DNA from: Mobula hypostoma
Lineage: Eukaryota
Length of the DNA: 64,000 bases
Direction of reading: 5' to 3'
NCBI RefSeq assembly: GCF_963921235.1
Contig: NC_086108.1
Location: 52,144,001 to 52,208,000, forward strand
In this document: positions 2,145 to 63,700 of the stretch, one piece after another
Layout: each line of letters begins with the position of its first letter
Position numbering within the stretch: position 1 is the stretch's first letter
Made by a program: the position numbers and the translations under genes
The notes under the pieces: generated by a model
Database searches by the model: none
Seen by the model: only the letters and a program-made list of their open reading frames with translations
What the model was told of the DNA's origin: nothing

Positions 2145-4292
2145 GGTGCCATTAACTGGGACAATAAAACCCTCATCTGCAACCAATATGAAGATTTTGC
2201 CACTGAGAAATGCCCGATTTCTGACCGTCCAGGAAGTGGAAAGGAGGTAGTGGATCGGATACTTCCCCAGCATACAGGCTCATACGCAGTGGAATTCAGG
2301 ATCCTCATGGTGGAATATGGCTAGAATATGGAAGCACTGCTGGCCCGTTACCATCACAGCCTTTCAGAGTGCTTGAAAGATGAGCTATTCACCTGGGAGA
2401 TGTCTCCAACCTCAAAAGCCTCATCACTCTGGCCCTCCGAATTGACAAACGCCTTAAGGAACGACCCTCCAGATCATCAGCCAGATCCCCCAGTTCCGTT
2501 CCCAGAACTACTTCAGGCTGCAGCCCCTTATCATCAACCTCTCAGAACTTACCCAGCTAGGGAGAACTCTCTTAAACCTCCCCCCCCAACCCCAAGATTG
2601 TGAGCATCAGTGGAGCAACAACTTGTGTACTTAATGCAGACCGCCGATCACCCATGTATCAAATGTCCACTGCATCAGGAAAATAGCACCACCAGGTAGA
2701 AACGAGGGGCCTTCTATCTAATAAGCTCCTTCTGGCCTCTTGTTCCAGCACTGTAGCCCAACTCACTTGCTCTGTCCTCTTCTACGCCCCAATTACTCTA
2801 CTCTCGCAGGAGATCCTGGTGTATTCCGGTGCATAGGCAGCTTTCTGGACTGGACTCTGTGCAGCTTTTACCAAGGCTATCTCTCACCCCTTCTGTATCA
2901 CGGCCATTGACGCTGTCCCTTGGGGGTCTGGAATGGTCAGAGCATGTTTACGTCCTGTGCACCTGACCGTCGGAGAGCACCACAGGTCCATCCAGTTCCT
3001 CCTTATCAACTTACCCCACACTCTTGTTATCTTGGGCTACCCCTAGCTCTACATTCACAACCCTCACTTTGCCTGGTCATCAAGTTCACTGCTGAGTTGG
3101 GGACCCACCTTACAAACCGTCTGCCTTCAGTTTCAGCTGACTACACCCCTTAAATCCGTGGTGGTGGAGGACAACCTCAAACTCACCAAACTCCCACAGA
3201 AATACCACAACTTAGTCATTGCCTTCAATACAAGAGAGGCCAGCACCCTGCCACCTCATAGACCACACAACTGTGCAATCAACCTCCTCCTGGGCACCAC
3301 CCCTCCCCATGGTAATCTGTTCTCCCCCTCCCCGCCTGAGACCCAAGCCATGAATGACCAAAGCGCTACAGCACAGATTCATTCAACCATTCCAGTCCCC
3401 AGTCAGTGCAGGATTCTTCTTTGTCAGAATGAAATATGAGAGACTTTGTCCTTGCGTCGACGAGCGTGGACTGAACAAAATCACTATTAAGAACCGCTAC
3501 CCTATCCCCTTGATGGGATAACACATTTAAAACACTCCGTGGAGTCCATATTCTTCACTAGACTGGATCTACAGACCACAAACAACCTGATTCACATCCA
3601 CCAAGGGGATGAGTAGAAGACAACATTCATGACACCTACAGAACACTACAAATACTTGGTGATGCCTTTCAGACTCTCCAACAGTCGAGCCATTTTTAAG
3701 CCTTCATTAACAAGATACTCTGAGACATGCTACACAGGTATGTGTTCATCTACCTCAACGACATCTTCATCTTCTCCAAGGACCCTCAAGACCATGTCTG
3801 TCACATCTGTTCAGTCCTTCCGCACTTCCTTGAAAATCAGATGTGTTGCAGATTAGAAAAGTGCAGGTTCCACAACTCATTCATTTTCTTCCTGGGTTAC
3901 AGCCTTTCTTCCCAAAGCATAACAATGGACCCATAGCATGCTGTTGTTGAATGGTCCCGACCACGATTCCTCAAACAGCTGCAGCCCTTCTTGGGCTTCT
4001 CCAACCTCTGTTGCCATTTCATCAGGAACCACTGCCAAATCACCATTTCTCTCACCTCCTTCTCTAAATCAACTACTTCATGAATAACCTGGTTTGCTAC
4101 TGTGGACCATGCATTCAAGAAGCTCAAGAGATGCTTCACCACCGATCCCATTCTCCGCCATCTGAACCCTTCCAGACCTTTTGTGGTAGAGGTGGACACA
4201 TCTGACGTGGGTGCTGGGTCTATGCTCTCCCTGTGAGGACCAGGCGGGAAGACACACCCTTGTGCCTTCTCGCGCAAGTTCATTTCTACACA

Positions 4293-4586
4293 TAGCCTGA
4301 AGATTCAGGGGAGTAGGTTTAAGATGGAGATGAGGAGGAACTGCTTTTCCCAGAGGGTGGCGAATCTGTGGAATTCTCTGCCTAATGAAGCAGTGGAGGC
4401 TACCTCAGTAAATATGTTTAAGACAAGGTTGGATAGATTTTTGCATAGTAGGGGAATTAAGGGTTATGGGCAAAAGGCAGGTATGTGGAGATGAGTCCAT
4501 GGAAAGATCAGCCATGACCTTATTGAGTGGCAGAGCAGGCTCGATGGGCAAGTTGGCCTACTCCCTCTCCTATTTCTTATGTTCTT
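4293..4586 (+). mobile_element. 5'-truncated CR1-type LINE 3' end nested in the gypsy RNase H
   Basis: CR1 ORF2 C-terminus (FSQRVANLWNSLP) plus 3'UTR; TACACA duplicated at 4287-4292 and 4587-4592. Excision restores FSRKFISTQCHYGIGDRKLLAI. Confidence 0.85.
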
Positions 4587-6241
4587 TACACAGTGTCACT
4601 ATGGAATAGGAGACAGGAAGCTACTTGCCATTAACTGGGCCTTGGAGGAATGGAGAGATTAATTAATGGAAACACCAGGCCCTTCCTGATCTGGACTAAC
4701 CAATGAACCCCTATATTTATTCAATAGACCTGCCAACTCAGCCAATGTCAGGCTCGCTGGGCCCTCTTTGAGCAATCCAACCTCTCCAGCTCCTGTTGAC
4801 CCAGCTCCAAGCACACTAAAGTGGATACCTTGTCATGACAGTTCAACCCAGTTGAAACTGAGATCGACCCTCAGCCCATCATTCCATCCTCCCAGATCCT
4901 CACCCTGATCATCTGGGACCTTGAGAAGCTGATCTGCCAGGCCCTATGGCACAAGCCTGCTCCGGCTGACACACCTGACAACTGCATGTACATGCTGGCA
5001 GCTGTCCACTCTGAGGCACTCCAGTGGGCGCACTACAGACTCGGAATTTTCTATGATGCTGGTTCTTGTGGCCCACCATGATTGCAGATTTATGTCAGTT
5101 CATGGCTGCCTGCCCTCAAAATGCCCAGTCCAATTCCTCCAACCAGCAGCCCTCTAGGCTTCTGCAGCCCCTGCTGGTCCTTCAACATCAGTGGTCCCAC
5201 ATCACCTTGGATTTCATCACAGGTTTGCCATCTTCCATCGGGGCATGGTGAATATGACAATGGTGGACTGATTCTCTAAGGCGACCCACTGTATTGCCCT
5301 CCCCAAGCTTTCATCAGCCGCAGAAACGGCAGACCTACTTCTTCAACATGTGGTTCACCTCCACAGCTTTCCCCAGAACATTGTGTCAGACCAGAGCCCA
5401 CAATTCATCTTCCGTTTCTGGTGAGCCTCCTGCTCCCTTCTCTGCATCTTAATGAGTTTGTCCTCTGGCTGTCATCTGTAGACCAACAGTCAGTCAGAAA
5501 GAGCCAATGAGCAAGTGCAGAAGTTCCTGTGATGCTTCCCCACCTCTAACCCTTCCACATGGAAGAAGTATCTGCTCTGGGTCAAACTGTCCGACAATTT
5601 ACCCACCTCCTCTGCCACGGGTACATCACCCTTTGAGGTGCTTCATGGCTACCAACTCCTGCTGTTCCCCATGGAGGAGCCAATGGCTTTGGTCTCATCT
5701 GCCAGGACCCTGGTTCGCAGATGTCAGAATGCTTGGGAAAGGGCACAGAGGGCCATCCTAGCTGCCAGCCATGTCTGCTGCTGTCAGGCCACCTGCCATT
5801 GGCTCCCAGCCAGACTACTCCGGTCTGGAGACCATGTCTGGCTGTCCACCTGAGATCTGTCCCTGTGAACTGACTCCCACAAACTCTCATCCTGGTTCAT
5901 TAGTTCCTGTAAGATTACCCATCACATCAACCCAGTCACTCACCATCTCCAGCTGCCACCAACCCTCAGGATCACACCTACCTGTTGCCCATGGATCACC
6001 CCACCCAGCTGAGGGGGCAGTTCTGCAACCTAGGATGGTGGACGTTGGTGCAATGTACACGGTTCACTGTTTCATGGATTCATGTCTTTGTGAACGAGTT
6101 GTGCATTACCTGGTTGGCTGGGAAGGGTGAGGCCTGATGGAGAGGTCCAGTCCAGTTAGATCCACTGCTTATCAAGGAGTTTCACTGGACCCATCTGGAT
6201 TTTCGTGGGCCGTCAGGTGCCGGTCATAAGTGGGAGGGTCC

Positions 6242-6552
6242 TGTCAGGCCTACACAGGCAGGCTCCTTCCAGTCGCCACCCAGCTAACTCATTTCTAGTT
6301 CATCACCTGGAGTCTATTTAAACCTAGCTCACATCCACAATCCATGTTCACTCATTGGACCAGCCAGCCTCAGCCGTTGCTCCTAGTCTTCAGCTACCTT
6401 GTTGCCTGTGAGTTTCGTATCTGTTCTGTGTTGTTTTGTAGCCCCTCATAGCTTGTATTTTGCAGTTTTTTTTAATTAAAGTTATTATTGTTCACTATGA
6501 ATCATCTCCACTGCTCTGTATTTGGGTCAAGCCTCCTCCACATTTCCTGACA
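6242..6552 (+). repeat. 3' LTR
   Basis: TGTCAGG...CCTGACA terminal inverted repeat, homologous to the 5' LTR. Confidence 0.9.
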
Positions 6553-7044
6553 ATAAGGCAAACTAAAACATCATGTCTGAATGTGCACATATTAAGTTCA
6601 TTTGTTCCCACAAAATATGAATACATAATGACATGTTGGGACTTTGTATTTTATCTGAGAAGGGTATACTGTCTATACCACCTATTCTTTTTGTGAAACA
6701 CTCTAATGGAAGCTTGAACAGAAAAAGTGTATGAGAAGGACATCTAATGTAAGTACATGTAATGTTCTTTTGAGGTCAAGACTGTTGTTAATATTGGAAA
6801 CTTCCAAAGGTTTTGGTGCTGATCAGTGTTAGTGATTTCTGATGAGAATGATGCTTCACTGTTCAAGGAACTGCATGTATTCTATTTAAACAAAAAAGAA
6901 AACAATTTTTTTGAAAAATTACTTTACAAATATTTCTTGCCTATCTAAATTTAGATATGAAATTCTATCTGGTATATATTTAGGTGCCAAGGAAGCAAAG
7001 TGGTTAGCACGTTATCCATCTATCCATCCTCTTCCAGTCCTTCA

Positions 7045-7292
7045 AGCTACACTGCCCCAGCAACCCTAAAACTACAATTAACCCTAACCTAATCACGGGA
7101 TAATTTACAATGATCAATTAACATACCTGGTACGTCTTTGGATTGTGGGAGGAAACCGGAGCGCTTGGAGAAAACCCATGTATTTCACAGGGAGGACGTA
7201 CAGAGACTGCTTACAAAATGGTGCTGGAATTGAATTCCAGAATGCCCTGAGCTGTAATAGCATCGTGCTAACTGCTACACCACTGTGGTGAC
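7045..7292 (-). mobile_element. tRNA-derived SINE (HE1/V-SINE-like)
   Basis: Reverse complement has a tRNA-like head and the GGGTTTTCTCC..GCTCCGGTTTCCTCCCACAATCCAAAGAC core shared with 18676 and 24417. Confidence 0.75.
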
Positions 7293-7739
7293 CGTAAGTA
7301 ATATATCATCCCTTTAAGACGTAAACTTACAATTGGTCAAACTAGTTCTGACAAAATAAATAAAACATAATATCATCAAATTAAAAAGCTTTTCAGATAA
7401 CCAAATAAAAGTAGTGAGTATAAGGACTGGGAAGATTTTAGAATTTGGCAAAGGGGAATAAAGGAAAGCAGAATATGAGTGTAGAAGAGTAACAACCCAA
7501 AAAAGAGCTTGTATGTAAAAAAAGTAAAAGTTAATGTTTGTGTCTTGGAGACTGATACAATGAAGTTATGTTGTCAAAAAAGGAAATGGCAGGGAAATTT
7601 AAAGAAAAAGCATGACACTAAAAATCTGGAAATAGAGGTGAACTGCAGGTTTAGATTAGATGAAAAGCTCATAGAAATCAGCATTAATTGAAAATAAATA
7701 TTAGAAGAAATAAGTGCTAAATGTGGATAATTTTCCAAA

Positions 7740-8734: not shown

Positions 8735-10810
8735 AACTTAAAACCATATTCCCGCTCTCTTACCATACCCCTTCATGCAGTTTTGTCAAGGATTCTGCCA
8801 TTCTCCTTCCTAAATATATTCAGCAACTTAGTCTCTACAGCCCTCAACAATGAAGAAGTTTCTCCTCATCTCAATCTTAAGTGTGTTGATTATGTTGTCC
8901 ACTCATTTTAGATATCCTAGATAGGGGAAACGTCTCCGTTGCATCCAGTCTGTCTAGCCCCATAAGAATTTTGTAAGTTCCTATTAGATTTCACCTCAGT
9001 CCTAAACTCTAATGAATACATTCCTGATCCACATAATTTTTCCTCCTAAAACAGTCCTGTCATTCCAGAAATGATGACCCTACACTGCACTCTCTTAATG
9101 CATTTTGTGTTGCTTTGGAATTCCAGCATCTGCAGTATTTCATGTCTTGTACAGACCCTGTACAATTGCTCCTGTTCTCTGTCCTCTTGTTATGAAGGCC
9201 AACATACCATCTGATTTCTTATCTCACAACACACTGGAGGAACTCAGCAGGTCGGGCAGCATCTGTGGAAAAGATCGGTCGACGTTTCGGGCCGGAACCC
9301 TTCATCAGGACTGTAGGGGGAAGGGGCAGAGGCCCTATAAAGGAGGGTGGGAAGGAGAAGGCTGGTAGGTTCCAGGTGAAAAACCAGTAAGCGGAAAGTC
9401 AAAGGGGTAGGGGAGGGGAGGCAGGGAGGTGATAGGCAGGAAAGGTGAAGAAAGAATAGGGGAAAACACAATGGGTAGTAGAAGGAGGCAGAACCATACG
9501 GGAGGTGATAGGCAGCTGGGAGAGGGGGCAGAGTGACATAGGGATAGGGGAAGGGAGGGGGAGGGAATTACTGGAAGTTGGAGAATTCTATGTTCATACC
9601 AAGGGGCTGGAAACTACCTAGACGGTATATGAGGTGTTGCTCCTCCAACCTGAGTTTACATACCAAAGGGCTGGAGACTACCTAGACGGTATTTCTTATC
9701 TGATGTCTGCATTTGCATGTTTGCTTTCTATGGCAACAGAAGAGATGACAGATGCTGGAATCTGGAGCAGCAATCTGCTGGAGGAACTCAACAGGGTTGA
9801 GCAGCATCTGTGTCCTGATTCATTGTTTTTAACCTAAAGCATTGACAGTTCCTTTGCTTTCAATGACCAGAGTACATACACAGGCACTCACATCTCTTTG
9901 TAAATCATCTCTTACCAACCTAACACAATTTAAATATCAAAGAGACTAACTTAATATTTAATCAAATTATGCTGGATCTCCCGTGCTTTTGCCCAATTGC
10001 TCAATTTATCTAAGTTGCCTGAAAGTGTCTTTACATCCATTTCACAGTTCATGATCTCACCTAGTTTGGTACTGCAGATATATTCAAATATTCAGTTTTG
10101 TTTTTTGTCCAAGTTATTGATATATAGTGTGAATAGCTAAACTCCATTCATTGATCAGTGTCTTACTTAACTGGCTATTATTTGCTGTCCTGAGAAAGCT
10201 CCACACCCCCCACCACCTTATTCTTGTTTTCACCCTCCCTTTTCAGTCCTGATAAAGATCTTGCCCTGAAACAGTGACTTTTTATTCCCCTGAATAACTG
10301 CTGCCTGACCTGCTGAGTTCTTCCGGCATTTTGTGTATATTTTATTCTCCTCTTTGTATTCTGTCTGTCAACAAACTTTAATCCATGCTAATAGTTTGCC
10401 CCCAAAACCATGTACCTTAATTTTTAAAAGGCACACAAAAATTCCAAGCAACCACATCCACTATTTCCCCCATTCTATGTTACGTTCCTAAAAGCTCCAA
10501 TAGTTTTTCCAAACTCTGTTTTCCTTCCAGAAATACTTTGATATTTTCCATCTGGTCTGTAATTTCATCCTTTTTAACAGCCTCGAGAATGTTCACCATT
10601 TCATATGTTAAACTAACACAGTCTGTATTTCTGTGTTTTCTTGCTCCCTCCCTTGTTTAAACAGGGGAGTTGCATTTACCACCCAACAATCTATGGAATT
10701 CCGGAAAACTGTAACCGATGCATCCACTATTTCCACAGCTATGTGCTCTGATACTCTGAGATGCAAATTAGTCTGTAGGAATTTATCAGCTTTCAATGCC
10801 ATTACACTGT
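8735..10810 (-). mobile_element. Old CR1 LINE fragmented by younger insertions
   Basis: Discontinuous minus-strand ORF2 remnants (e.g. WVVNATPLFKQG in ORF 10608-10817); the 3' end lies at ~8195-8245. Confidence 0.5.
9225..9690 (-). mobile_element. Penelope-like element 3' fragment with hammerhead motif
   Basis: 11-bp TSD ATTTCTTATCT (9214-9224, 9691-9701); GIY-YIG C-terminal remnant like that at 45475; CTGATGA..GAAACGTC on the minus strand. Confidence 0.8.
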
Positions 10811-11140: not shown

Positions 11141-12105
11141 TTTGGACTGCTTTTTATGCTGTATATCAGTGATTTAGATGATGGAACAGGTGGCTTTGTT
11201 GCCAAGTTTGCAGATGATACGAAGATTGGTGGAGGGGCAGGTAGTGCTGAGGAAACAGGTAGGATACAGAAGGACAGATTAGGAGAATGGGCAAGAAAGT
11301 GGGACAATGAAATTCAATGTTGGAAAGTGCATGATCATGCACTTTGGTAGTAGAAATGTGTGCAGGCTATTTTCTAAACGGGAAGAAAATCCAAAAAATC
11401 TCAGGTGCAAAGGGACTTGGGAGTCCTTGTGCAGAACACCTTAAAGGTTAACTTGCAGGTAGAGTTGATGGTGAGGAAGGCAAATGCAATGTTAGCATTC
11501 ATTTCAGGGATGTGATGTTGGGGGTTTATAAAGCACTGGTAAGGCCTCACCTTGAGTATTGTGAACAGTTTTGGGCTCCTCGTTTAAGAAAAGATGTGCT
11601 GACATTGGAGAGGGTTCAGAGGATGTTCAGAAGGATGATTCTGGGGATTAAAGGGTTATCATAAAAGGAATGTTTGATAGCTCTGGGTCTGTACTCGCTG
11701 GAATTTAGAAGGATGGGGGTGGGGACCTCTTTGAAACCTTTCCAATGTTGAAAGGCCTAGACAGAGCAGATGTGGAAAGGATGTTCCCCATGGTGGGGGA
11801 GTCTAGGACAAGAAGGTACAGCCTCAGGATAGAGAGGCACCATTTAAAACAGAGGTGCGGAGAAATTTCTTCAGCCAGAGGCTGGTGAATTTGTGGAATT
11901 TGTTACCACAGGCAGCTGTGAAGGCCAGATCATTGGGTTATTTAAGGCAGAGATTGATTGGTTCTTGATTGGACACGGCATCAAAGATTATGAGGAAAAG
12001 GCCAGGGAGTGGGGTTGAGGAGGGGGAGAAAGGATCAGCCATGATTCAATGGTGGAGCAGATTTGATGGGCCAAATGGCCTAATTCTGCTCCTATGTCTT
12101 ATGGA
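11141..12105 (+). mobile_element. 5'-truncated CR1 LINE
   Basis: YISDLDDG..KFADDTKIGG, LVRPHLEYCEQFWAP, 3'UTR ending CTCCTATGTCTTATGG. Confidence 0.9.
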
Positions 12106-14703: not shown

Positions 14704-15238
14704 TACTCAGTGGCAATTTTATGAGATACCTCCTGTACCTAATAAAATGGCTATTGAGTGTATGTTCATGGTCTTCTTCTGCTGTAACCCATCCACTTTA
14801 AGGTTCAAAGTGTTGTGCATTCAGAGATGCTCTTCTGCAAACCACTGTTGTGACATGTGGTCATTTGAGTTACTGGCGCCTTACTGTTAGCTTGAAACTG
14901 TCTGGCCATTCTCCTCTAACCTCTCTCATTAACAAGGCATTTTTGCCCACAGAACAACCACTTACTGGATGATTTTTGCACCATTCTCTGTAAACTCTAG
15001 AGATTGTTGTGCATGAAAATTCCAGAAGATCAGCAGTTTCTGAGAAACTCAAACTACCCCACCTGGCTCAACAATAATTCCACAGTCAGTCACTTAGACC
15101 ACATTTCTTCCCCATTCTAATGTTTGGTCTGAACAAGAACTGAACCTCTTCACCATGTCTGCATGCTTTATGCATTGAGATGCTGCCACATGATTGACTG
15201 ATTAGATATTTGCATTAACAAGCAGGTATACCTAATAA
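14704..15238 (-). mobile_element. Tc1/mariner non-autonomous element
   Basis: Transposase HTH remnant (SETADLLEFSCTTISRVYREW); homologous to 22751 and 47286. Confidence 0.85.
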
Positions 15239-16046: not shown

Positions 16047-17795
16047 AAGACCATAAGACCATAAGACATAGGAGCAGAATTAGGCCATCTGGCCCATCAA
16101 GTCTGCTCTGCCATTCAATAATGGCTGATCCTTTTTTCTTCTACTCCTCAACCCCAGATCCTGGCCTTCTCCCCGTAACCTTTGATACTATGTCCAATCA
16201 AGAACCTATCAATCTCTGCCTTAAGTACTCCAAACAACCTGGCCTCCATATATACATGTGGCAACAAATTTCACTATTCACCATCCTTTGGCTAAAGAAA
16301 TTTCTCCACATATCTGTTTTGAAAGGGCGCCCCTCTATGATGAGGGTGTGCCCTCTTATCCTAGACTCTCCCACCATGGGAAATATCCTTTCCACATATA
16401 CTCTGTCTAGGCCTTTCAACATTCAAAAGAATTCAATCAGATCCCCCTTCATCCTTCTGAATTCCAGTGAATGCAGACACAGAGCCATCAAACTTTCCTT
16501 GTATGATAACCCTTTCATTCCTGGAATCATCTTTGTGAACCTTCTCTGGACCCTCAACAATACTAGCACATCTTTTCTAAGATGAGGGGCCCAAAACTGT
16601 TCACAATACTCAAGGTGAGGCCTCACCAGTGCCTTATAGAGCCTCAGTATCACATCCTTGCTCTTGTATTCTAGGATCTCTTGAAATGAATGCTAACATG
16701 GCATTTGCCTTCCTCACCACCGACTCAACCTGCAAGTTAACCTTCAGGGTATTCTGCACAAGGACGCCCAAGTCCCTTTGCATCTCAGATTTTTGGATTT
16801 TCTCCCTGTTTAGAAAATAGTCCACACATTTATTTCTACTACCAAAGTACATGATCCTGCATTTTCTGACATTGTATTTCTTTTGCCACTTTCTTGCCCA
16901 TTCTCCTTATCTAAATTCTTCTGCAGCCTACCTGTTTCCTCAACACTACCTGCCCCTCCACCAATCTTTGTATCATCTGCAAACTTGGCAAGAAGGCCAT
17001 CTATTCCATCATCTAAATCATTTATATAGTGTAAAAAACAAGTGGTCCCAACACCAACCCCACAGAAAAGCACTAGTCACTGGCAGCCAATCAGAAAAGG
17101 ATCCTTTTATTCCCACACACTACCTCCTACCAATCAGCCAATGCTCTAGCCATGTTAGTAACTTTTCTGTAATACCATAGGCTCTTAACTTGATAAGCAG
17201 CCTTATGTGTGGCACCTTGTCAAAGGTCTTCTGAAAGTCCAAATATACAACATTCACTGCATCCCCTTTATCTATCCTACTTGTAATCTCCTCAAAGAAT
17301 TCCAACAGGTTCGTCAGGCAGGATGTTCCCTGAAGAAAACCATGCTGACTTTGTCTTATCTTGTCCTATGTCACCAAGTACTTCATCACCTCATCCTTAA
17401 CAATTGACTCTTAACATCAGCCCAACCACTGAGGCCAGGCTAACTGGTCTATAATTTCCTTTCTGCTGTCTTTCTCCTTTGGCACCATGCCAGAGTCCAC
17501 TGATTTCTGAAAGATCATTTCTAATGCCACCATAATCTACCTCTTTCAGAACCCTAGAATGCAGTTTTTGATCACGTTCTCTCTTGTAATGGTAACTGCA
17601 CCCACTTCTCTTCCTTCACACATTACAACATCAGGCATATTGCTAGTGTTTTTCCACAGTGAAGACTGATGCAAAATACTCATTTAGTTCATCAGCCATC
17701 TCCTTGTCTCCCGTTATTATTTCTCCTGCCTCATTTTCTAGCAGTCCTATATCCACTCTCATTTCTCTTTAATTTGTAACATACTTGAAAAAAAT
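16047..17795 (-). mobile_element. 5'-truncated CR1 LINE
   Basis: VYLDFQKTFDKVPH, KFADDTKIGG, LVRPHLEYCEQFWAP; (CTTATGGT)n tail; same family as 11141-12105. Confidence 0.92.
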
Positions 17796-22750: not shown

Positions 22751-23281
22751 TACACTCTGCAGCCACTTGATTAGGTACACAGGTTGCTTGTTAATGCAAA
22801 TGTCCAATCATGTGGCAGCAACTCAGTGCATCAAAAGGTTCGGTTGTTGTTCAGACCAAATGGCAGAATAGGAAGGAAATGTGATCTAAGTGACTTTGAC
22901 TGTGGAATGATTGTTAGTGCCAGAGGGGTGGTTTGAGTATCTCGGAAACTGCTGATCTCCTAGGATTTTCACGCACAGCACTCTCTAGAGTTTACAGAGA
23001 ATGGTGTGAGAAGCAAAACAAAAACATTCAGCGAGTGGCAGTTCTGTGGGCAAAAACATCTTGTTAATAAGAGAGGTCGGAGGAGAATGGTCAGATTGTT
23101 TCAAGTTGACAAGAAGGTGCCAGTAACTCAAATAACCACACATTACAACAGTGGTGTGCAGAAGGGCATCTCTGAATGCACAACACTTGGAACCTTGAAG
23201 TGGATGGGCTACAGCAGCAGAAGACCATGAACATACACTCAGTGATCTCTTCATTAGACACCTAATGAAGTGGCCACTGAG
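22751..23281 (+). mobile_element. Tc1/mariner non-autonomous element
   Basis: TIRs TACACTCTGCAGCCACTTGATTAGG / CCTAATGAAGTGGCCACTGAG; transposase N-terminal remnant (LKWMGYSSRRP). Confidence 0.88.
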
Positions 23282-45041: not shown

Positions 45042-46707
45042 AACACAAGGAAATCTGCAGATGCTGGAATATCAAGCAACACACATAAAAGTTGCTGGTG
45101 ACCGCAGTGGGCCAGGCAGCATCTCTAGGAAGAGGTATAGTCGACGTTTCAGGCCAAGACCCTTCGTCTGGACTAACTGTGAAAGAAGAGCTAGTAAGAG
45201 ATTTGAAAGTGGGAGGGGGAGGGGGAGATCCAAAATGATAGGAGAAGACAGGAGGGGGAGGGATGGAGCCAAGAGCTGGACAGGTGATTGGCAAAGGGGA
45301 TATGAGAGGATCATGGGACAGGAGGCCTGGGGAGAAAGAAAAGGGGGGGGGGAGAAGCCCAGAGGATGGGCAAGGGGTATAGTGAGAGGGACAGAGGGAG
45401 GAAATAAAAGAGAGAGAAAAAGAATGTGTGTATGTAAATAAATAACGGATGGGGTACGAGGGGGAGGTGGAGTATTAATGGAAGTTAGAGAAGTCGATGT
45501 TCATGCCATCAGGTTGGAGGCTACCCAGACGGAATATAAGGTGTTGTTCCTCCAACCTGAGTGTGGCTTCATCTTTACAGTAGAGGAGACCGTGGATAGA
45601 CATATCAGAATGGGAATGGGACATGGAATTAAAATGTGTGGCCACTGGAAGATCCTGCTTTCTTTGGCGGACAGAGCATAGGTGTTCAGCGAATCGATCT
45701 CCCAGTCTGCGCCGGGTCTCGCCAATGTATAGAAGGCCACATCGGGAGCACCGGACGCAGTATATCACCCCTGTCGACTCAGGTGAAGTGTCGCCTCACC
45801 CGGAAGGACTGTCTGGGGCCCTGAATGGTGGTAAGAGAGGAAGTGTAAGGGCATGTGTGGCACTTGTTCCGCTTACAAGGATAAGTGCCAGGAGGGGAGA
45901 TCAGTGGGGAGGGAATGGGGGGGGGGGATCGAATGGACAAGGGTCGCTTAGGGAGCGATCCCTGTGGAAAGCAGAGAGGGGCGGGGAGGGAAAGACGTGC
46001 TTAGTGGTGGGATCCTGTTGGAGGTGACGGAAGTTACGGAAAATTATATATTGGAGCCGGAGGCTCCTTCTGATGTGGCCTTCTGTATATTGGCGAGACC
46101 TGACGCAGACTGGGAGATCGTTTCACTGAACACCTACGCTCTGTCCGCCAGAGTAAGCAGGATCTTCCAGTGGCCACAGATTTTAATTCCATGTCCCATT
46201 CCCATTTTGATATGTCTATCCATGGCCTCCTCTACTGTAAAGATGAAACGACACTCAGGTTGGAGGAACAACACCTTATATTCCGTCTGGGTAGCCTCCA
46301 ACCTGATGGCATGAACATTGACTTCTCAAACTTCTGCTAACGCCCCTCCTACCCCATCTGTTACTTATTTATATACACACATTCTTTTTCTCTCTCTCCT
46401 TTTTCTCCCTCTGTCCATCTCGCTATACCCCTTGCCCATCCTCTGGTTTCCCCCCTCCCCCTTTTCTTTCTCCCTAGGCCTCCTGTCCCATGATCCTCTC
46501 ATACCCCTTTTGCTAATCAACTGTCCAGCTCTTAGCTCCATCCCTCCCCCTCCGGTCTTTTCCTATCATTTCGGATCTCCCCCTCCCCCCTCAAATCTCT
46601 TACTAGCTCTTCTTTCAGTTAGTCCTGATGAAGGGTCTCGGCCGGAAATGTTTACTGTACATCTTCCTAGAGATACTGCCTGGCCTGCTGCGTTCACCAG
46701 CAACTTT
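45042..46707. mobile_element. Penelope-like (GIY-YIG) element insertion with inverted fold-back structure
   Basis: 13-bp TSD AATATGGGAACTA (45029-45041, 46708-46720). GIY-YIG ORF 45475-45768(-) IYCVRCSRCGLLYIGETRRRLGDRFAEH; a second copy of the same 3' region on + at ~46070-46707. Confidence 0.92.
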
Positions 46708-47285: not shown

Positions 47286-47807
47286 TACATTCAGTAGCCA
47301 GTATACTAGGTACACCTGGTGTGACTCCAAATAGCTTAATAGCTAATCATGTTGCAGCAACTTAACATGTAAAAGCATGCTGACATAGTCAGGAGATTCA
47401 GTTGTTGTTCAGACAAACATCAGAATGGAGAGAAATGTGATCTAAGTGACTTTGACCATAGAATGATTATTAGTGCCAGACAGGGTGGTTAGAGTATCTC
47501 AGAATCTGCTGATTTCCTGGGATTTTCATGCACAACAGTCTCAAGAATTTAGAGAGAATAGTACGGGAAAACAAAAACAAATCCAGTGAGCGTGAGTTCT
47601 GTGTGTAAAAATGCCTTGTTTATGAGAGAGGTCAGGAAAATGGTCAAACTGGTTCAAGCTGACAAGAAGGCAACAGTAACTCAAATAACCATGCATTACA
47701 ACAGAAGAGCATCTCTGAATGCACAACATGTCAAACCTTGAAGTGGATGGGCTACAGCAAAGAAAGCCATGAGCTTATACTCAATGATCACTTTATTAGG
47801 TACCTCC
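47286..47807 (+). mobile_element. Tc1/mariner non-autonomous element
   Basis: Homologous to 22751-23281. Confidence 0.85.
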
Positions 47808-49507: not shown

Positions 49508-50131
49508 GTGTGTAATTTTTCTCCTTTTCATAAGCGTGCATCAATCTAGTACTTACACATTTCAATCAAGTGAGGCTTAAGCATGCTGAACTCCAGCAAT
49601 TTATAAACCTTGTTGCAGTAAATAATAGTCCCCTTAGGTTATTTAAGTAGTAATTTGATCAGATCAAATTCATTAGTGAGTCAAGAGGTTGAAAGCAGTA
49701 AATAGTAAATGGATGGGATGACCTATGGGCTAACTGATTTGGGTAGCACAAGTACATTAAATTGTGATCCTATTAGAAAGACACAGGTAAATTTAAAATT
49801 CATTTATAAATTAGTAAGACTACTGTCCTAGTTTATTAATGGTACCATATGGAAAGAAGGTTGAAAAAAATTAGAGCAATGAAAAAAATAGAAAACATGA
49901 ATCGAATTGTGTTTAAGAAAGCTGCAGTTTTCAAAAGGTCAAAAAATGAGCTCAAATTAAATGATTGTGTTCTATTTCGAGCCAATGGGAATTGATTGTT
50001 TTTTTTTCTTCCTAAAAGTACTCCCCAATTTCTTCTCTACTGAAATCATTCACTTTTTTAATGCATACTCTGTGCATTAAATATCTTCTGGTAGCTGTGC
50101 CAATTGATTATCACTCATGTACTTCGAATGT

Positions 50132-50690
50132 ATGGGGTGTCAGGGACGGGTAGCACCTCTGGTGGGGGAACATGTTGCGTCCTTTTCAGGGCGGTTAGTC
50201 CACCTTTGGTCCCCACCTGGCACTCAGCTCTTACCTGTGGCTCCCCGTAGCTGTTTGCATGCGACAGCGGCCACACCCCGGGCAACGGCTTCGACAAGCT
50301 GGCTAAACCAGGTGAGGGTAGCCGACGGGTCTCAAACCCTCGGTGAGATAGGGAGTTGTCTATCCCAGCATGTGAAGACAAACTCCGACGGATTGAGCGG
50401 ACGAGATCCATGGAAGGTCCAACGGTCAAGAAGGCGGTCTCTGCAAGCATCATGGAACGTGTAGAGCAGGACAAGACAGAGAAGACATCCTGGTCATCCA
50501 CTGCGCCTAGTCCCATCTCCAGCCGTCTAGACTCTGTCTTGCCACTGGATCCAGATGGGAATTGGGAAGAGAGAGTGAGGCTGACGCTGCGCAACTCTCC
50601 CTCACTTAAATCCAAATGACGCGCTAGTCTCCACACCATGATAATGGTGTCGAGGTCCTCATCGACGTCAACAATGGACGAACAACAACA
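50132..50690 (+). mobile_element. Short non-autonomous non-LTR retroelement (RTE-like) with 5' ribozyme and (CAA)n tail
   Basis: 11-bp TSD ACTTCGAATGT/ACTTTGAATGT (50121-50131, 50691-50701); AACAACAACA tail; CpG-rich; no tRNA A/B boxes seen. Confidence 0.85.
50134..50318 (+). ncRNA. HDV-like (double pseudoknot) self-cleaving ribozyme
   Basis: P1 GGGGTGT(50134-40)/ACACCCC(50273-79); P2 50228-38/50307-18; P3 GGC/GCC; L3 starts TCCCCGT; P1.1 CC/GG; G-CAA; P4 CGGCTT-cgac-AAGCTG; J4/2 GCTAA with putative catalytic C50303. Confidence 0.82.
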
Positions 50691-50977
50691 ACTTTGAATG
50701 TCCTCAGGTTATTCAGATATCCAGTGAATAGAAATCATAACCAAGCCTTATTATTTTCATTAGTTTCCATTATCTATACCTGTCGTGATGATTTCTCAGT
50801 AGTGACAGTGAACAGGTAAATATTTCCCTTTCCAACCTTAATTTAAAGACAAGGCGGATGATATTTTCATTTGGGATGGCAGGAGAAATTATGTGTCTCT
50901 AAGTGAACACAAAGGCCATTTCCCTCAAATAACAAGGTATTTCAGTGTTTCTTACTGTTACCAATTTTTATTGGCAG

Positions 50978-60504: not shown

Positions 60505-60741
60505 AACAACAGGAATTCTGCAGATGCTGGAAATTCAAGCAACACACATAAAAGTTGCTGGTGAACGCAGCAGGCCAGGCAGCATCTCTAAGAAGAGGTG
60601 CAGTCGACGTTTCAGGCTGAGACTCCTAACCCTAACCCTCGCATTAGTCCTGACGAAGGGTCTCGGCCTGAAACGTCGATTGCACCTCTTCTCAGAGATG
60701 CTGCCTGGCCTGCTGCGTTCACCAGCAACTTTTATGTGTGT
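60505..60741. mobile_element. Miniature fold-back Penelope-derived element
   Basis: 13-bp TSD TCCAAAATTTGCT (60492-60504, 60742-60754); 83-bp inverted arms; same termini as the 45042 element. Confidence 0.9.
60646..60681 (+). ncRNA. Minimal type I hammerhead ribozyme motif (Penelope-associated)
   Basis: AGTC-CTGACGA-AGG..CCT-GAAA-CGTC|GATT: intact core, stem I AGTC/GATT, palindromic ACGT in place of stem III. Confidence 0.65.
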
Positions 60742-63700
60742 TCCAAAATTTGCTGTCAGTTTTGTGGTATAATAATAGTGAGATCTGATCATTGGGTGAT
60801 TAGGGGGGTACATTTGCCTACATTTTGCTTGCGAAATCTGACCCAGCATTGTGGGCATCGTAAAAGAAGTGTGGCTTTGAATTGTTAAGTGGTGTGGACG
60901 TGTCATGCATAGCATTGCAATGCACATGAACGGAGGACTTTCAGAGCAAGAGGCACAGTAATCTAATGTGTGATTATTGCAAAGAACAGTACCTCCCCAG
61001 TCACCCAATGGTCCTTCATGCTGTGTGAGACCATCATTATACACCATAAATTAAAACACGCCTTATTCCTCGTAAATTCCATGTTCAACTTCAAAATTAA
61101 TTTGTGGTGGGGACTAAAATCCTGCTATTCAGATTTAGAAGATGTAAGTTATGACAGAAACCTGTCTCCTCCATCATGGTGAGAAACAAACTATTCGAAT
61201 GATAACAAGTCACTAAAGTTAAATTACCATAGAAATAATCTAATAATCTGGCTGTCCAGATTATTCATTCAGTTAATGATTAGAAGGTGGGACAATAGCT
61301 GAACTTTGTAATGAGTCTAACAAAACCTACCAGATTGGGTTCAATAATGTCCAATTTATGACTCCACATGGTTGACTTAACAAACCATTCAGTTGTAGAT
61401 GCTTTAACACCATATTCTCAATGAGCAATTAAGGATGGACAGTAATTGCTAATCTTGTCAATGCTGTCCAGAAATAAGTGAATAAAACTGCATAAGTAGT
61501 ATCATAATCAGCATTCCCAGTTGGAGACACCATGCAAAGAGAACATATTTGGAAATATATATTTAAGTAAGCAGCTGTCCTCCTCTTAAAGTCTTCAACT
61601 AGTTATACATAAAATATTAACTGCTACAGCTGGAACTTTAATCCCTTTCCTCTTCAATTTCTTTCCTTTTATTAAAACCAGAGTTGTGCAGGGAACATCT
61701 GTTATCTGGCTAAATTCCCTGCATAACCAGGCCAAGGTTAAGGTTGTCAACTCTCCAGGATTGCCCTGGAATCCACAGAAATTGGAGATGAATCTGAGCA
61801 ACTTTCTCGGAAACCTGGACGACAGAATAAGACTGGGGAAAAATATCATGAAAATAGAAATGTACTATTTTGGTTCATGTGTTACTTTCATTATCAGTTC
61901 TTAAAATATTGGAGAAGGGATAAAAAAAAGGTTGTTCAAATGACAGTAAGTAAAAAGGCAGTTGGATAACACTTCATGTGGGAAGATAGTGCAGTGGATT
62001 ATTGACCAATGTGTGAAAGGTGACCTTAGGCAGATGTTTGGAACAGTGAGGTTTGGAGACAAAAGATCTTGTAATGAAATCAACTATTGTAAAGCCATTA
62101 CTGTCATCATTTTATTAATTTGTACATTCAGATATTGCCAATGGTAATAGGACAGTGAAGAGGATAATGAATCTTTCCAAATCAGAAACCAAATTCCAAA
62201 TGGTACTATTGCCCAACGTCCACTGCGCTGTTTCTCTTGGTAGTAGTACAGCCAGTCCATGAGATTAATTATGAATTGTTGACTAATTATTTGGTATATT
62301 TTATGGATTATACCACAGTGTTTGCTGTAAAATATTGATTGTCAGGCTATTGCACATCCAGGTTTTGAGAAAGATTAGGGAAAGGCCAGATGTCGGGGTT
62401 TTAATTCTTATGTTCTGGTATTGTGGTTTTGTTTAGTTAAGTGGTTTTATTAGCTGTATTAAAGGACGATTAACAGTCAACCAAACAGATATGGAATCAA
62501 TAATGCCACAATGAGAAAAAGTGGATTAACTTGTGTGGTCATCATTACAAATACCAGAATACTTTAAACTACAAATTTATTTAATAAACTCAAATTTCTT
62601 GGCTAGTATGGTGTGAGTTAGACTGGTTTCTTTGGGTCTCTACTAGTCCAGTAATTTAACCACAATGGTATTATGCCTGAGTAAATCAGGTCCACATTGA
62701 ATAAAATTACAAATCCTGAACATGTGTATCAAAAACACTAAAACCTTTGATAATTGATTTCCTTTTATAATCCAAGGAATATGCAAATAGGTGAGAAATA
62801 CATTTATACCCAATTACATTGTAAATCCTTGGTACATACATTCAGAATTGCAGTAATTTTGTGGGTGATGTTGTAATTGTGAAAATGAATTCACTTCTGG
62901 TAAAATAATTAAAATCGTAAAGTGAGAAACTGCTGTGCTGATGTTTTTCAGAATGCCTCTGCTTTGCTTTGCTGAATATTTTCTTGTTACATTAACCTTT
63001 AAAAACTCAGCATCACCACCATGCTTTATTGCCAACCACAGCTCAAGTGCCATCCACAGATTGTTGGGTGACATTGTGTGCAGTGATCGATTTGAAATTG
63101 TTGTGCTCCAGCAACTGTTATTCACTTTTTAACAAACTACATGAAAAATATAACTTCTGTCATCTTTCCGCTGTTGTACATTCACCTGATATTTCTCTAT
63201 TTAATGAGTAACACCCTATTTTAAAATATGTTTTGGGTTCACATTGGCATTTAAAACACATTCATATACTGTTTGATGAACAAATTAAGGGAAAAGTGGG
63301 AAGTGGTCAATCACTGATGCTTAACCTGAATCGTTTGCTCAGAGCATTTGCTTTGAATGTATTAGAGGTTCAGCAATTTAACCATAGCAACTTGAGCTTG
63401 TTAATGTACAGGAAATGGTTAACCCAACTGACAGATCATTTGCCTCTGAATAAAGCAGCAAGAAAAAGTTTGTTATTCATGGATGTAGGCTGGTAGTTTT
63501 CAATCAACAGCATGCAAAATGGAAAATGAGCAGAACATTATTTTTATTTAAATCTCCAGGGAAGGCTAAATCTACCATTTCAGCACACCTTGTAAAAATT
63601 GAATAAATGTGCATGTATTCTTGGTAGCAATCAATCAAGATATTTTTAAAAAGTAATTAACAATTTTATTGATGTGTGATTGTTATTTATTATTTGAAGT

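What the first reader, a model, noticed from the sequence alone, without database searches (positions are those of the whole stretch)
50132..50690. Ribozyme-headed short retroelement: complete HDV-like ribozyme in a PDE4DIP intron
Seen: a 559-bp insert with an 11-bp TSD and (CAA)n tail. Two nt after the left TSD begins GGGGTGT, which pairs perfectly with ACACCCC (50273-79; P1). All other HDV elements follow in canonical order. P2 is CTCTTACCTGT (50228-38) with ACCAGGTGAGGG (50307-18; one bulged C, two G.U pairs). P3 is GGC (50239-41)/GCC (50270-72). L3 begins U-C-C-C-C-G-U, and P1.1 is C50243,C50244/G50280,G50281. Then come G-CAA as in genomic HDV, a 6-bp P4, and G-C-U-A-A with the C75 equivalent at 50303. 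J1/2 is 87 nt with its own GGTGGGG/CCCCACC helix. Established: HDV-like ribozymes process the 5' ends of R2, RTE, L1Tc and other non-LTR elements. Inference: a non-autonomous family with no evident pol III promoter whose 5' end is made by self-cleavage from host transcripts and which is mobilised by an RTE-type LINE. I do not recall such a family described in cartilaginous fish, but cannot verify novelty.
Basis: partly seen in the sequence, partly recalled or inferred. Interest (0 to 1): 0.9.

Follow-up and report, generated by a model that had tools for sequence, protein, structure and literature searches.

The report
Ribozyme-headed SINE family in a ray
This 559-base insert is one slightly shortened copy of a very abundant short jumping element whose front end has the layout of an HDV-type self-cutting RNA, which would let the element trim its own start out of any host transcript instead of carrying the usual promoter.

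Summary
The insert is real.

**The family.** It belongs to a young family (F1): 40 of 40 scored matches are 96-100% identical, and the 3'-end 27-mer has 1139 hits. F1 sits in an older superfamily of ~550-bp elements, with 1251 further exact hits to a variant core 16-mer.

**Correction.** Full-length copies start 9 nt further upstream, with GGGGTGT-AT-GGGGTGT. The first heptamer sits at the element's terminus and is the likely P1 strand. The window copy has lost the first heptamer.

**For an HDV-like ribozyme.**
- All elements occur in canonical order.
- The P1', P3', P1.1, J4/2 and P2' strands are the best-conserved parts across 11 clades.
- P4, the J1/2 closing helix and a hairpin in L3 covary.
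- A descriptor hits once in the window, in 0 of 200 window shuffles and in 1 of 20,000 element shuffles.

**Against.**
- There is no Rfam hit.
- L3 is 28 nt.
- G1 pairs with C rather than U.
- P1, P2 and P3 show no covariation.
- Cleavage is untested.

**Partner.** A sister family carries an RTE-derived tail, but that RTE lacks the head. I judge this a probable (~0.7) new variant of a known kind.

The parts
50121..50131 (+). Left target-site duplication, ACTTCGAATGT. Its last 3 nt (TGT) could equally be the remnant of the family's first GGGGTGT heptamer.
50132..50690 (+). One copy of the young family F1 of a ~550-bp SINE-like retroelement superfamily. It is 5'-truncated by 4-7 nt relative to full-length copies.
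   Evidence: 3637 first-look candidates, and 40 of 40 scored matches are 96-100% identical..
50134..50144 (+). Second GGGGTGT heptamer plus CAGG. In the family model it is the 5' strand of the helix closing the J1/2 arm (P1.2), pairing 50135-50144 with 50216-50225.
   Evidence: Clade comparison. RNAalifold on 11 representatives recovers this helix. 84.4% of cells are paired.
50145..50215 (+). Interior of the structured J1/2 arm. The first ~25 nt and CACCTTTGGTCCCCAC are conserved. The middle is variable and holds TTTT at 50183-50186.
50216..50225 (+). 3' strand of the J1/2 closing helix (CCTGGCACTC).
   Evidence: It changes in step with the 5' strand between clades.
50228..50238 (+). P2 5' strand. 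Position 50232 is T here and C in 29 of 30 copies.
50239..50241 (+). P3 5' strand (GGC).
   Evidence: 96.9% of cells paired.
50242..50269 (+). L3, 28 nt. The first 8 nt, UCCCCGUA, match HDV L3 position for position as I recall it, with C50243 and C50244 forming P1.1. A 19-nt hairpin follows (stem 50250-54 with 50264-68), then one G.
   Evidence: The stem is kept in all clades, with G-C changed to A-U in clade F4, while the loop varies.
50270..50272 (+). P3 3' strand (GCC).
50273..50279 (+). P1 3' strand (ACACCCC), complementary to both heptamers.
   Evidence: It is unchanged in the 5 best-resolved clade majorities; the other 6 have ambiguous or substituted positions.
50280..50285 (+). GG of P1.1 (50280-81) and J1.1/4 (GCAA here; TAAA or TACA in sister clades).
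50286..50301 (+). P4 hairpin, 6 bp with loop CGAC. Position 50300 is T here and C in 26 of 30 copies.
   Evidence: 5 of 6 pairs have changes on both sides. Recovered by RNAalifold.
50302..50306 (+). J4/2 (GCUAA) with the candidate catalytic C at 50303.
   Evidence: The GC is kept in the majority sequences of 10 of 11 clades and is ambiguous (Gn) in one.
50307..50318 (+). P2 3' strand.
   Evidence: agreement 0.97 across clades.
50319..50504 (+). Body shared by all families of the superfamily. It includes a further hairpin just after P2.
50505..50690 (+). Family-specific 3' module with terminal hairpins (for example 50634-39 with 50644-49) and the (CAA)n tail. The corresponding module of sister family F3 is made of RTE 5' and 3' pieces.
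50691..50701 (+). Right target-site duplication, ACTTTGAATGT.

Best explanation
The insert is a 5'-truncated, decayed copy of a young SINE-like family, F1. F1 belongs to an old superfamily of ~550-bp non-autonomous retroelements in this genome, which earlier notes of this scan call a ray genome.

**Layout.** All families share a ~390-nt head-plus-body module and differ in a ~170-nt 3' module taken from LINE partners.

**The head.** The first ~195 nt of the module fold as a large HDV-like self-cleaving ribozyme:
- P1 is the 5'-terminal GGGGTGT paired with ACACCCC.
- A two-nucleotide linker leads into a long structured J1/2 arm, closed by the second GGGGTGT heptamer.
- P2 is 11 bp and P3 is 3 bp.
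- L3 begins UCCNNGUA and supplies the CC of P1.1.
- An extra hairpin sits between L3 and the P3 3' strand.
- P4 is 6 bp, and J4/2 is GC(U/C)AA with the catalytic C.

**Inferred mechanism.**
1. A copy is transcribed, either as part of a longer pol II transcript or from a start of its own.
2. The ribozyme cuts immediately 5' of the first G.
3. The released RNA therefore carries the whole ribozyme.
4. An RTE-type reverse transcriptase recognises the 3' module and copies the RNA to its end.
5. Every full-length daughter copy again starts at that G.

**Shown:** the family structure, the fixed terminus, the conservation pattern, covariation in three helices, and the RTE origin of one sister family's tail.
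**Inferred:** cleavage, the source of transcription, and the partner of the window's own family.
For: 1. **Fixed terminus.** In about 16 of 30 F1 copies the TSD ends within -1 to +2 nt of the first G of GGGGTGT-AT-GGGGTGT. The clade majority sequences begin with the same double heptamer; it is complete in the 3 best-resolved of 11 clades and partly ambiguous in the older ones.
2. **Complementarity at the right place.** That terminal heptamer is exactly complementary to the 7 nt lying between the P3 3' strand and the GG of P1.1.
3. **Conservation tracks the core.** Agreement of six other clade majorities with F1:
   - P3'/P1'/P1.1 block 0.93, J4/2 0.90, P2 3' strand 0.97. None of these lies in the 16-mer used to collect the sister copies.
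   - J1/2 interior 0.63, J1.1/4 0.33, P4 0.70, body 0.68-0.76, 3' module 0.36-0.51.
4. **Covariation at clade level.**
   - P4 reads CGGCTT/AAGCCG, CCGCTT/AGGCGG or CCGTCT/AGACGG.
   - The L3 hairpin changes G-C to A-U in clade F4.
   - The J1/2 closing helix changes A-U to C-G.
5. **Pair counts on 100 copies.**
   - 86.1% of cells are paired, against 32.7-50.9% when partners are slid.
   - The covariation score is 0.145 against 0.035-0.067, and 0 of 500 shuffles reach it.
   - 5 of 6 P4 pairs change on both sides.
6. **Chance estimate.** The descriptor hits once in the window, in 0 of 200 window shuffles and in 1 of 20,000 element shuffles.
7. **The majority repairs the window copy.** Both of its extra G.U pairs are C-G in the majority: 29 of 30 and 26 of 30 copies.
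8. **Precedent for the architecture.** A structured J1/2 domain with short linkers and a 12-bp P2 is the reported layout of the fast RTE-associated drz-Agam-2 ribozymes (PMC4908430, part 1 of the text read).
9. **No pol III signs.** No tRNA was found. No Rfam small-RNA match appeared at E<=10. A TTTT run lies about 60 nt from the 5' end in F1 and F3.
10. **Tail exchange.** The F3 tail matches an RTE 3' end (87% over 61 nt) and that RTE's 5' region (91% over 91 nt).
Against: - No Rfam HDV-type family matches the window copy or six other copies, even at E<=10.
- L3 is 28 nt instead of the usual 7-8, because of an inserted hairpin. I know of no precedent for this (recalled, not searched).
- The first P1 pair is G-C in 27 of 30 F1 copies, not the G.U wobble of HDV and CPEB3.
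- P1, P2, P3 and P1.1 show no real covariation. They are simply invariant, so the two pseudoknots rest on conservation and position only.
- A sublineage with GGGGTAT as first heptamer (8 of 30 copies, linked to a second marker) has spread despite an A.C mismatch in P1.
- Clade F4 has two uncompensated mismatches in P2.
- RNAalifold on all 100 copies recovers only P4.
- On 11 chosen representatives RNAalifold finds a nested alternative. It pairs the P1 5' strand with the P2 5' strand, and P1' with P2'.
- The structure and the descriptor were derived from these sequences, which inflates controls based on pairing.
- No cleavage assay has been done, and no RNA 5' ends were available.
Confidence: 0.7

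Rival explanations
1. The head is a conserved structured RNA or an internal promoter with some other role, such as an internal pol II promoter, a diverged pol III head, an RT or export signal, or a relic of an unknown small RNA. The fixed 5' end would then be a transcription start, and the HDV-like layout would be coincidence or a dead relic.
For: - No Rfam HDV match.
- Atypical L3 and a G-C first pair.
- No covariation in P1, P2 or P3.
- The first ~44 nt are conserved beyond what P1 and the closing helix need (agreement 0.92-0.94), as expected for an internal promoter.
- The GGGGTAT sublineage spread with a P1 mismatch.
- A nested alternative fold exists.
Against: - The descriptor is very rare by chance: 0 of 200 window shuffles and 1 of 20,000 element shuffles.
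- The strands needed only by the pseudoknots (P1', P1.1 GG, the J4/2 GC, P2') are the most conserved unselected blocks.
- No tRNA, 5S or 7SL likeness was found, and there is an internal TTTT run.
- A promoter and a ribozyme can coexist, as in Pr77/L1TcRz (PMC3383444, abstract seen), so conservation of the 5' 44 nt does not exclude cleavage.
Confidence: 0.2
2. The element is a bipartite non-autonomous LINE in Kojima's sense. Head and tail would both derive from one autonomous LINE, not found here, that itself carries this ribozyme at its 5' end. The ribozyme would still work as in the best explanation.
For: - Bipartite ORF-less derivatives are reported for RTE, Ingi, Vingi and R2, and a 5' ribozyme was proposed as a reason (PMC5786205, section 23 read).
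- The 3' module of sister family F3 contains both a 5' piece and the 3' end of an RTE.
Against: - 11 of 11 copies of that RTE's 5' region lack the head.
- All 100 sampled head-bearing copies are ~550-bp elements.
- BLAST of the F1 element against about 150 kb of window and flanks found no related longer element.
- The same head and body carry at least three different 3' modules, which fits a SINE-like head that swaps tails.
Confidence: 0.25
3. One reading: this particular copy is a complete ribozyme that cleaves 5' of G50134, using the second heptamer as P1.
For: GGGGTGT 50134-40 is perfectly complementary to ACACCCC 50273-79, and all downstream elements are present.
Against: - Family copies begin at the upstream heptamer, not at this one.
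- None of the 30 copies starts exactly at the second heptamer's G. The 5-6 truncated copies start 1-4 nt before it.
- The second heptamer is engaged in the covarying J1/2 closing helix.
- This copy differs from the majority at 16 positions.
Confidence: 0.12

Closest known systems
HDV-like ribozymes at the 5' ends of non-LTR retrotransposons (R2, R4/Dong, RTE, Baggins, L1Tc), especially the large drz-Agam-2 type of Anopheles RTE
   Same: - Nested double-pseudoknot order, with cleavage at the first nucleotide of P1, which is the element's 5' end.
- UCC...G in L3, a 2-bp P1.1, and a C at the start of J4/2.
- A long structured J1/2 domain with short linkers and an 11-12-bp P2.

Sources: PMC4908430 part 1; PMC3774820 sections 12, 13, 15 and passages.
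   Different: - It sits on a short non-coding element, not on the LINE.
- A 19-nt hairpin is inserted between L3 and the P3 3' strand.
- The first pair is G-C.
- The host is a vertebrate (ray).
- No Rfam model detects it.
- Activity is untested.
Ribozyme-headed non-autonomous non-LTR elements: NARTc of Trypanosoma cruzi and the R2-derived SIDEs of Drosophila
   Same: These are short non-coding derivatives that keep a 5' HDV-like ribozyme and a 3' end recognised by a LINE enzyme. Sources: PMC3185411 passages; PMC3414825 and PMC3383444 abstracts in search listings.
   Different: - Those elements share their head with their own autonomous LINE.
- Here, the one partner identified (the RTE of family F3) lacks the head.
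- The head is combined with at least three different tails.
- Copy number is in the thousands.
Bipartite non-autonomous LINEs and SINEs with RTE-derived middle and tail parts (Kojima 2018, PMC5786205)
   Same: The 3' module of family F3 is an RTE 5' piece joined to the RTE 3' end, exactly the kind of building block described there.
   Different: Kojima's SINEs place a pol III small-RNA head in front of such blocks. Here that position is taken by a ribozyme-like head with no detectable small-RNA origin.
Known cartilaginous-fish SINEs (CmiSINE, SacSINE1, with CORE or Deu domains; PMC5499810 passages)
   Same: SINE-sized, with a long-conserved internal domain and exchangeable LINE-derived tails.
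   Different: - Those have tRNA-related heads and L2-type tails.
- This family has no tRNA likeness and, in F3, an RTE tail.
- I could not compare it with the CORE or Deu consensus sequences, which are not available here.

Membership tests
HDV-like (delta) self-cleaving ribozymes | Nested double pseudoknot with strands in the order P1, P2, P3, P3', P1', P1.1, P4, P2' | tested here: met
   Read by hand and located by script. The descriptor hits once in the window, in 0 of 200 window shuffles and in 1 of 20,000 element shuffles.
HDV-like (delta) self-cleaving ribozymes | Cleavage site at the first nucleotide of a 6-7-bp P1; for retroelement ribozymes this is the element's 5' end | tested here: met
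   Met at family level. The terminal GGGGTGT is complementary to ACACCCC, and the TSD abuts it (within -1 to +2 nt) in about 16 of 30 copies. The window copy lacks this strand.
HDV-like (delta) self-cleaving ribozymes | Cytosine at the start of J4/2 (general acid), inactivated by C-to-U | not testable with these tools
   A C is present at 50303 and in the GC(U/C)AA of 10 of 11 clade majorities, ambiguous in one. Its catalytic role needs an assay.
HDV-like (delta) self-cleaving ribozymes | P1.1: two pairs between L3 and the two nucleotides after P1' | tested here: met
   CC 50243-44 with GG 50280-81. 81.4% of cells are paired over 100 copies, with no covariation.
HDV-like (delta) self-cleaving ribozymes | Short L3 (7-8 nt) closing a 3-bp P3 | tested here: not met
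   L3 is 28 nt: 8 canonical-looking nucleotides, a 19-nt hairpin and one G. The hairpin is present in all 11 clade majorities. The typical L3 length is recalled.
HDV-like (delta) self-cleaving ribozymes | G.U wobble as first pair of P1 (HDV, CPEB3) | tested here: not met
   The pair is G-C in 27 of 30 F1 copies. The wobble is not universal in the family: the primer sequences in PMC3185411 suggest that L1TcRz starts with C (my inference, not stated in the paper).
HDV-like (delta) self-cleaving ribozymes | Helices supported by compensatory change | tested here: inconclusive
   P4, the J1/2 closing helix and the L3 hairpin covary. P1, P2, P3 and P1.1 are invariant.
HDV-like (delta) self-cleaving ribozymes | Match to a curated Rfam HDV-type covariance model | tested here: not met
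   No HDV-type match at gathering score or at E<=10, for the window copy and six other loci. Large insertions may hide it.
Classical SINE (pol III, small-RNA-derived head) | Head derived from tRNA, 5S, 7SL or snRNA, with internal promoter boxes | tested here: not met
   ARAGORN found 0 genes. There is no Rfam small-RNA match at E<=10. TTTT lies at 50183-86. A/B boxes were judged by eye only.
RTE-mobilised non-autonomous element | 3' end shared with an RTE LINE | tested here: inconclusive
   Met for sister family F3: 87% over 61 nt to the 3' end of an RTE with APE/RT-like ORFs. Those ORFs were named by eye, with no family search. The partner of the window's family F1 was not found; its tail differs.
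Bipartite non-autonomous LINE | Both ends derived from one autonomous LINE | tested here: not met
   11 of 11 copies of the F3 partner RTE's 5' region lack the head. Untested for F1.

The most novel reading that the evidence does not exclude
This would be a new class of vertebrate SINE-like element that replaces the pol III head with a self-cleaving HDV-like ribozyme.
- The head is not borrowed from its LINE partner.
- It has stayed fixed while 3' modules were exchanged between RTE-type partners.
- It has produced thousands of copies up to very recent times.
- The ribozyme would be a structurally expanded HDV fold, with a hairpin inserted at the L3/P3 junction, a G-C cleavage-site pair and a twin-heptamer 5' end.
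- The element could launch from any host pol II transcript.
Probability: 0.5. Interest if true: 0.8.

Novelty: new variant of a known kind. Interest (0 to 1): 0.68.

Why it matters
SINEs are normally defined by a pol III head. Ribozyme-defined 5' ends are known for LINEs and for a few of their deletion derivatives in trypanosomes and flies.

If confirmed, this would be a very successful, recently active vertebrate family whose conserved head is an HDV-like ribozyme independent of its LINE partner. That would show a second general way to build a SINE. It would add a natural HDV variant with an insertion in L3 for structural study. It would also seed thousands of potential self-cleavage sites into ray introns and transcripts.

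The idea is directly testable with a one-day cleavage assay.

Tried and rejected
- **Rfam.** No match at gathering score on the whole window. At E<=10 on the element and on six other loci, only unrelated weak hits appeared.
- **ARAGORN.** It found nothing.
- **MFE fold of 50134-50320.** z = -0.75 and a non-pseudoknotted fold, so it is uninformative.
- **DNA searches of the genome.** Queries with the whole element, its 5' 187 nt or its 3' 151 nt returned only near-identical copies, because only 40 candidates are scored. They could not reveal a LINE partner for F1.
- **BLAST against window and flanks.** The element against about 150 kb found only its own 3' hairpin.
- **Sequencing runs.** No RNA holder is listed. 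All four laid runs are contigs of unrecorded kind, so they show neither RNA starts nor expression. I used them only as a lead to variant families.
- **RNAalifold on all 100 copies.** It recovered only P4 and a 3-bp helix.
- **Pfam.** It found nothing credible on the forward ORF or the reverse stop-free frame.
- **The RTE partner of F3.** It does not carry the head.
- **Organism D contigs.** I considered an apparent alternative P1' (AAACCCT) as covariation, then rejected it as a decayed copy.
- **Earlier notes of this scan.** Nothing near the window, by sequence, or on HDV SINEs.
- **Papers not held.** Webb 2009, Ruminski 2011 and Webb & Luptak 2011 were unavailable, so their search descriptors and lists of vertebrate hits were not seen. 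No supplements were read.
- **Literature searches.** No paper on an HDV-like ribozyme in a cartilaginous-fish SINE turned up, and none of three typed motifs appears in print.
- **Not checked.** The PDE4DIP label, and CORE/Deu domain identity.
Full report
**1. The observation**

The window holds a 559-bp insert at 50132-50690. It lies between ACTTCGAATGT (50121-31) and ACTTTGAATGT (50691-701), an 11-bp target-site duplication with one C/T mismatch. It ends in about four CAA units.

I wrote an HDV-type descriptor with these requirements:
- a 7-bp P1 starting with G
- J1/2 up to about 120 nt
- at least 7 contiguous P2 pairs
- a 3-bp P3
- L3 of 7-30 nt starting UCC with G at position 6
- GG after P1'
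- a P4 hairpin
- C-N-A-A before P2'

It finds this site and nothing else on either strand of the 64-kb window. It finds nothing in 200 dinucleotide shuffles of the window and hits 1 of 20,000 dinucleotide shuffles of the element itself. The descriptor was written after seeing the site, so these figures are generous. Even so, the arrangement is not a chance pattern.

**2. It is a repeat family, and its true 5' end lies 9 nt upstream**

The genome holding the window (3.48 Gb) gave 3637 first-look candidates for the element. All 40 scored matches are 96-100% identical over at least 554 of 559 nt. A 27-mer at the 3' end has 1139 matches with up to 2 mismatches, and 0 for the reversed control.

Thirty copies with flanks differ from their majority at only 4-16 positions. 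The window copy is the most diverged, at 16.

TSD analysis of the 30 copies (with my reading for L002 and L028, where the script picked a different repeat) gives:
- about 16 copies where the duplication ends within -1 to +2 nt of the first G
- 5-6 copies, including the window copy, truncated by 5-8 nt
- 5 copies with 2-8 extra nucleotides
- the rest unclear

**3. A superfamily with a constant head and exchangeable tails**

Contigs of four coded public runs (organisms A, B, D, F; kind not on record) held the element. They also held relatives that share mainly the segment corresponding to window 50201-50266, with C>A at the two L3 positions 50245-46 in a large share of the depth.

A 16-mer with that variant has 1251 exact matches in the window's genome, against 0 for the control. 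I fetched seventy of these. Those compared are ~540-560-bp elements homologous to the window's family over their whole length.

A tree of these 70 plus 8 F1 copies gives:
- the young F1
- a small sister clade, F5
- F3a/F3b (85-92% pairwise identity)
- F4
- a broad old radiation, F2 (about 70-75% pairwise identity)

For clade majorities I used 66 of the 70. I left out L060, L077 and L093, which were unplaced, and the duplicate L083.

All clades share the head and body up to about window 50504, then diverge.

The last 61 nt of F3 match the 3' end of an RTE-type LINE at 87%. The preceding 91 nt match that LINE's 5' region at 91%. The ORFs I call endonuclease- and RT-like were named by eye, with no family search. 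The lead to that RTE came from earlier notes of this scan. In all 11 copies of that RTE's 5' region, the sequence upstream of the shared piece is unrelated to the head. The F1 and F2 tails differ from F3's, and I did not find their partner.

**4. Evidence that the head is an HDV-like ribozyme**

*Terminus and P1.* The clade majorities start with the double heptamer. It is complete in F1, F3a and F3b and partly ambiguous in the older clades. ACACCCC sits exactly between the P3 3' strand and GG; it is unchanged in 5 of the 11 majorities, and the other 6 have ambiguous or substituted positions. The element's terminal 7 nt can therefore form P1 with the cleavage site at the terminus, as in retroelement HDV-like ribozymes (PMC3774820, sections 12-15 read).

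This helix changes in step between clades: GGGTGTCAGG/CCTGGCACTC in F1, GGGTGTCC(A)GG/CCGGACACTC in F2, and GGGTGTC(T)AGG/CCTGGCGCTC in F3. RNAalifold recovers it on 11 of the 100 copies, which I chose as the least decayed of each clade.

*Other covarying helices.*
- P4 reads CGGCTT/AAGCCG (F1), CCGCTT/AGGCGG (F2, F4) or CCGTCT/AGACGG (F3).
- The hairpin inside L3 keeps its stem while its loop changes, and swaps G-C for A-U in F4.

*Pair counts on all 100 copies.* I used 30 F1 and 70 variant copies and dropped no rows. Forty-three rows lacked a recognisable start or end motif and were cut at fixed offsets. The 44 proposed pairs gave:

| Measure | Proposed structure | Partners slid |
|---|---|---|
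| Cells paired | 86.1% | 32.7-50.9% |
| Covariation score | 0.145 | 0.035-0.067 |
| Cells changed on both sides | 106 | 36-58 |

No shuffle out of 500 reached the observed covariation score. Five of six P4 pairs change on both sides.

*Conservation across clades.* Agreement of six other clade majorities with F1:

| Segment | Agreement |
|---|---|
| P3'/P1'/P1.1 block | 0.93 |
| J4/2 | 0.90 |
| P2 3' strand | 0.97 |
| J1/2 interior | 0.63 |
| J1.1/4 | 0.33 |
| P4 | 0.70 |
| Body | 0.68-0.76 |
| 3' module | 0.36-0.51 |

The three top blocks lie outside the 16-mer used to collect the sister copies.

*Fit to known large ribozymes.* The layout of short linkers, a stable J1/2 domain and an 11-12-bp P2 matches what was shown to make the RTE-associated drz-Agam-2 ribozyme fast (PMC4908430, part 1 read).

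**5. What does not fit**

- No Rfam HDV-type model matches, even at E<=10, in the window copy or in six other loci.
- L3 is 28 nt. Its first eight nucleotides, UCC(CC/AA)GUA, line up with the whole L3 of HDV as I recall it. A 19-nt hairpin follows before the P3 3' strand. I know of no precedent for this, and it was not searched.
- The first P1 pair is G-C in 27 of 30 F1 copies, not G.U. That wobble is not universal: the primer sequences in PMC3185411 suggest L1TcRz starts with C (my inference, not stated in the paper).
- P1, P2, P3 and P1.1 never covary, so the two pseudoknots rest on conservation and on position.
- Eight of 30 F1 copies carry GGGGTAT as first heptamer. This is linked to a second marker (5 of those 8, against 3 of the 22 others), so a lineage with an A.C mismatch in P1 has spread.
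- Clade F4 has two uncompensated mismatches in P2.
- RNAalifold on all 100 copies finds only P4.
- On the 11 representatives RNAalifold offers a nested alternative. It pairs the P1 5' strand with the P2 5' strand, and P1' with P2'. This could be an inactive conformer or the real fold.

**6. Rivals**

*A pol III SINE head.* This is unlikely. No tRNA was found, no small-RNA family matched, and a TTTT run lies about 60 nt from the start in F1 and F3. That T4 terminates vertebrate pol III is established knowledge.

*An internal pol II promoter in the very conserved first ~44 nt.* This remains possible, and it is compatible with a ribozyme, as in the Pr77/L1TcRz dual system (PMC3383444, abstract seen).

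*A purely bipartite LINE derivative* (PMC5786205, section 23 read). The RTE that gave F3 its tail lacks the head, and all 100 sampled head-bearing copies are short.

**7. Known or new**

Ribozyme-defined 5' ends are established for R2, R4/Dong, RTE, Baggins and L1Tc. They are also established for the non-autonomous NARTc and R2 SIDEs (PMC3774820, PMC3185411, PMC3414825). Kojima linked them to bipartite derivatives (PMC5786205).

Seven full-text searches found no HDV-like ribozyme in a cartilaginous-fish SINE. The library lacks Webb 2009 and Ruminski 2011, and I had no access to Repbase or Dfam.

I therefore file it as a probable new variant of a known kind. It is a SINE-like superfamily whose constant head is an expanded HDV-like ribozyme not shared with its identified LINE partner. 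Cleavage has not been tested.

Noticed in passing
window 50132-50690, minus strand; also L013:1488-2071 minus strand: The reverse strand of F1 copies has one frame free of stop codons over the whole element (189-194 codons). Only 6 of 2000 mononucleotide shuffles reach 185 or more. There is no Pfam match. In the older F3 copies the longest such frame is 74-138 codons.
   Followed up: partly
window 50411-50619; majority form in L010, L011, L013: A forward ORF starting MEGPTVKK runs into the (CAA)n tail without a stop in most F1 copies. The window's sublineage has TGA at 50617-19. The ATG is absent in family F3, so it is probably not coding. The only Pfam hit (DUF746) is below threshold.
   Followed up: partly
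L062:about 4080-7355 (same as L061 up to 2355), plus strand: An RTE-type LINE copy of about 3.1-3.3 kb. I read the ORF by eye as running to within a few nt of the 3' end. Its last 61 nt and a 91-nt 5' piece are the building blocks of the 3' module of sister family F3. Most of the 11 aligned copies of its 5' region (8 of the 11, including L062 itself) share at least 100 nt more upstream sequence.
   Followed up: partly
A2 columns 10-14 with 119-123, and 163-166 with 204-207 (about window 50230-34; 50275-78 with 50315-18): The P1 5' strand can pair with the P2 5' strand, and the P1 3' strand with the P2 3' strand, giving a non-pseudoknotted alternative fold of the head. It may be a competing inactive conformer.
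   Followed up: no
window 50634-50649 and 50650-50667: Two small hairpins lie just before the (CAA)n tail (CACCAT-GATA-ATGGTG and GTCGA...TCGAC). They are candidate recognition elements for the reverse transcriptase. The first shows up as an internal inverted repeat in most copies.
   Followed up: no
window 45215-46589: Long inverted repeats are present (289-nt arms at 91%, 145-nt arms at 92%), with related pieces at 9550-9655 and 60505-60742. This is a fold-back or nested repeat unrelated to the finding.
   Followed up: no
window 22803-23257, 47427-47766 and 14739-15150: Three copies (two direct, one inverted) of another dispersed repeat at 81-91% identity. Separately, LINE-like inverted segments lie at 11152-12104 and 16059-17038. 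Not examined.
   Followed up: no
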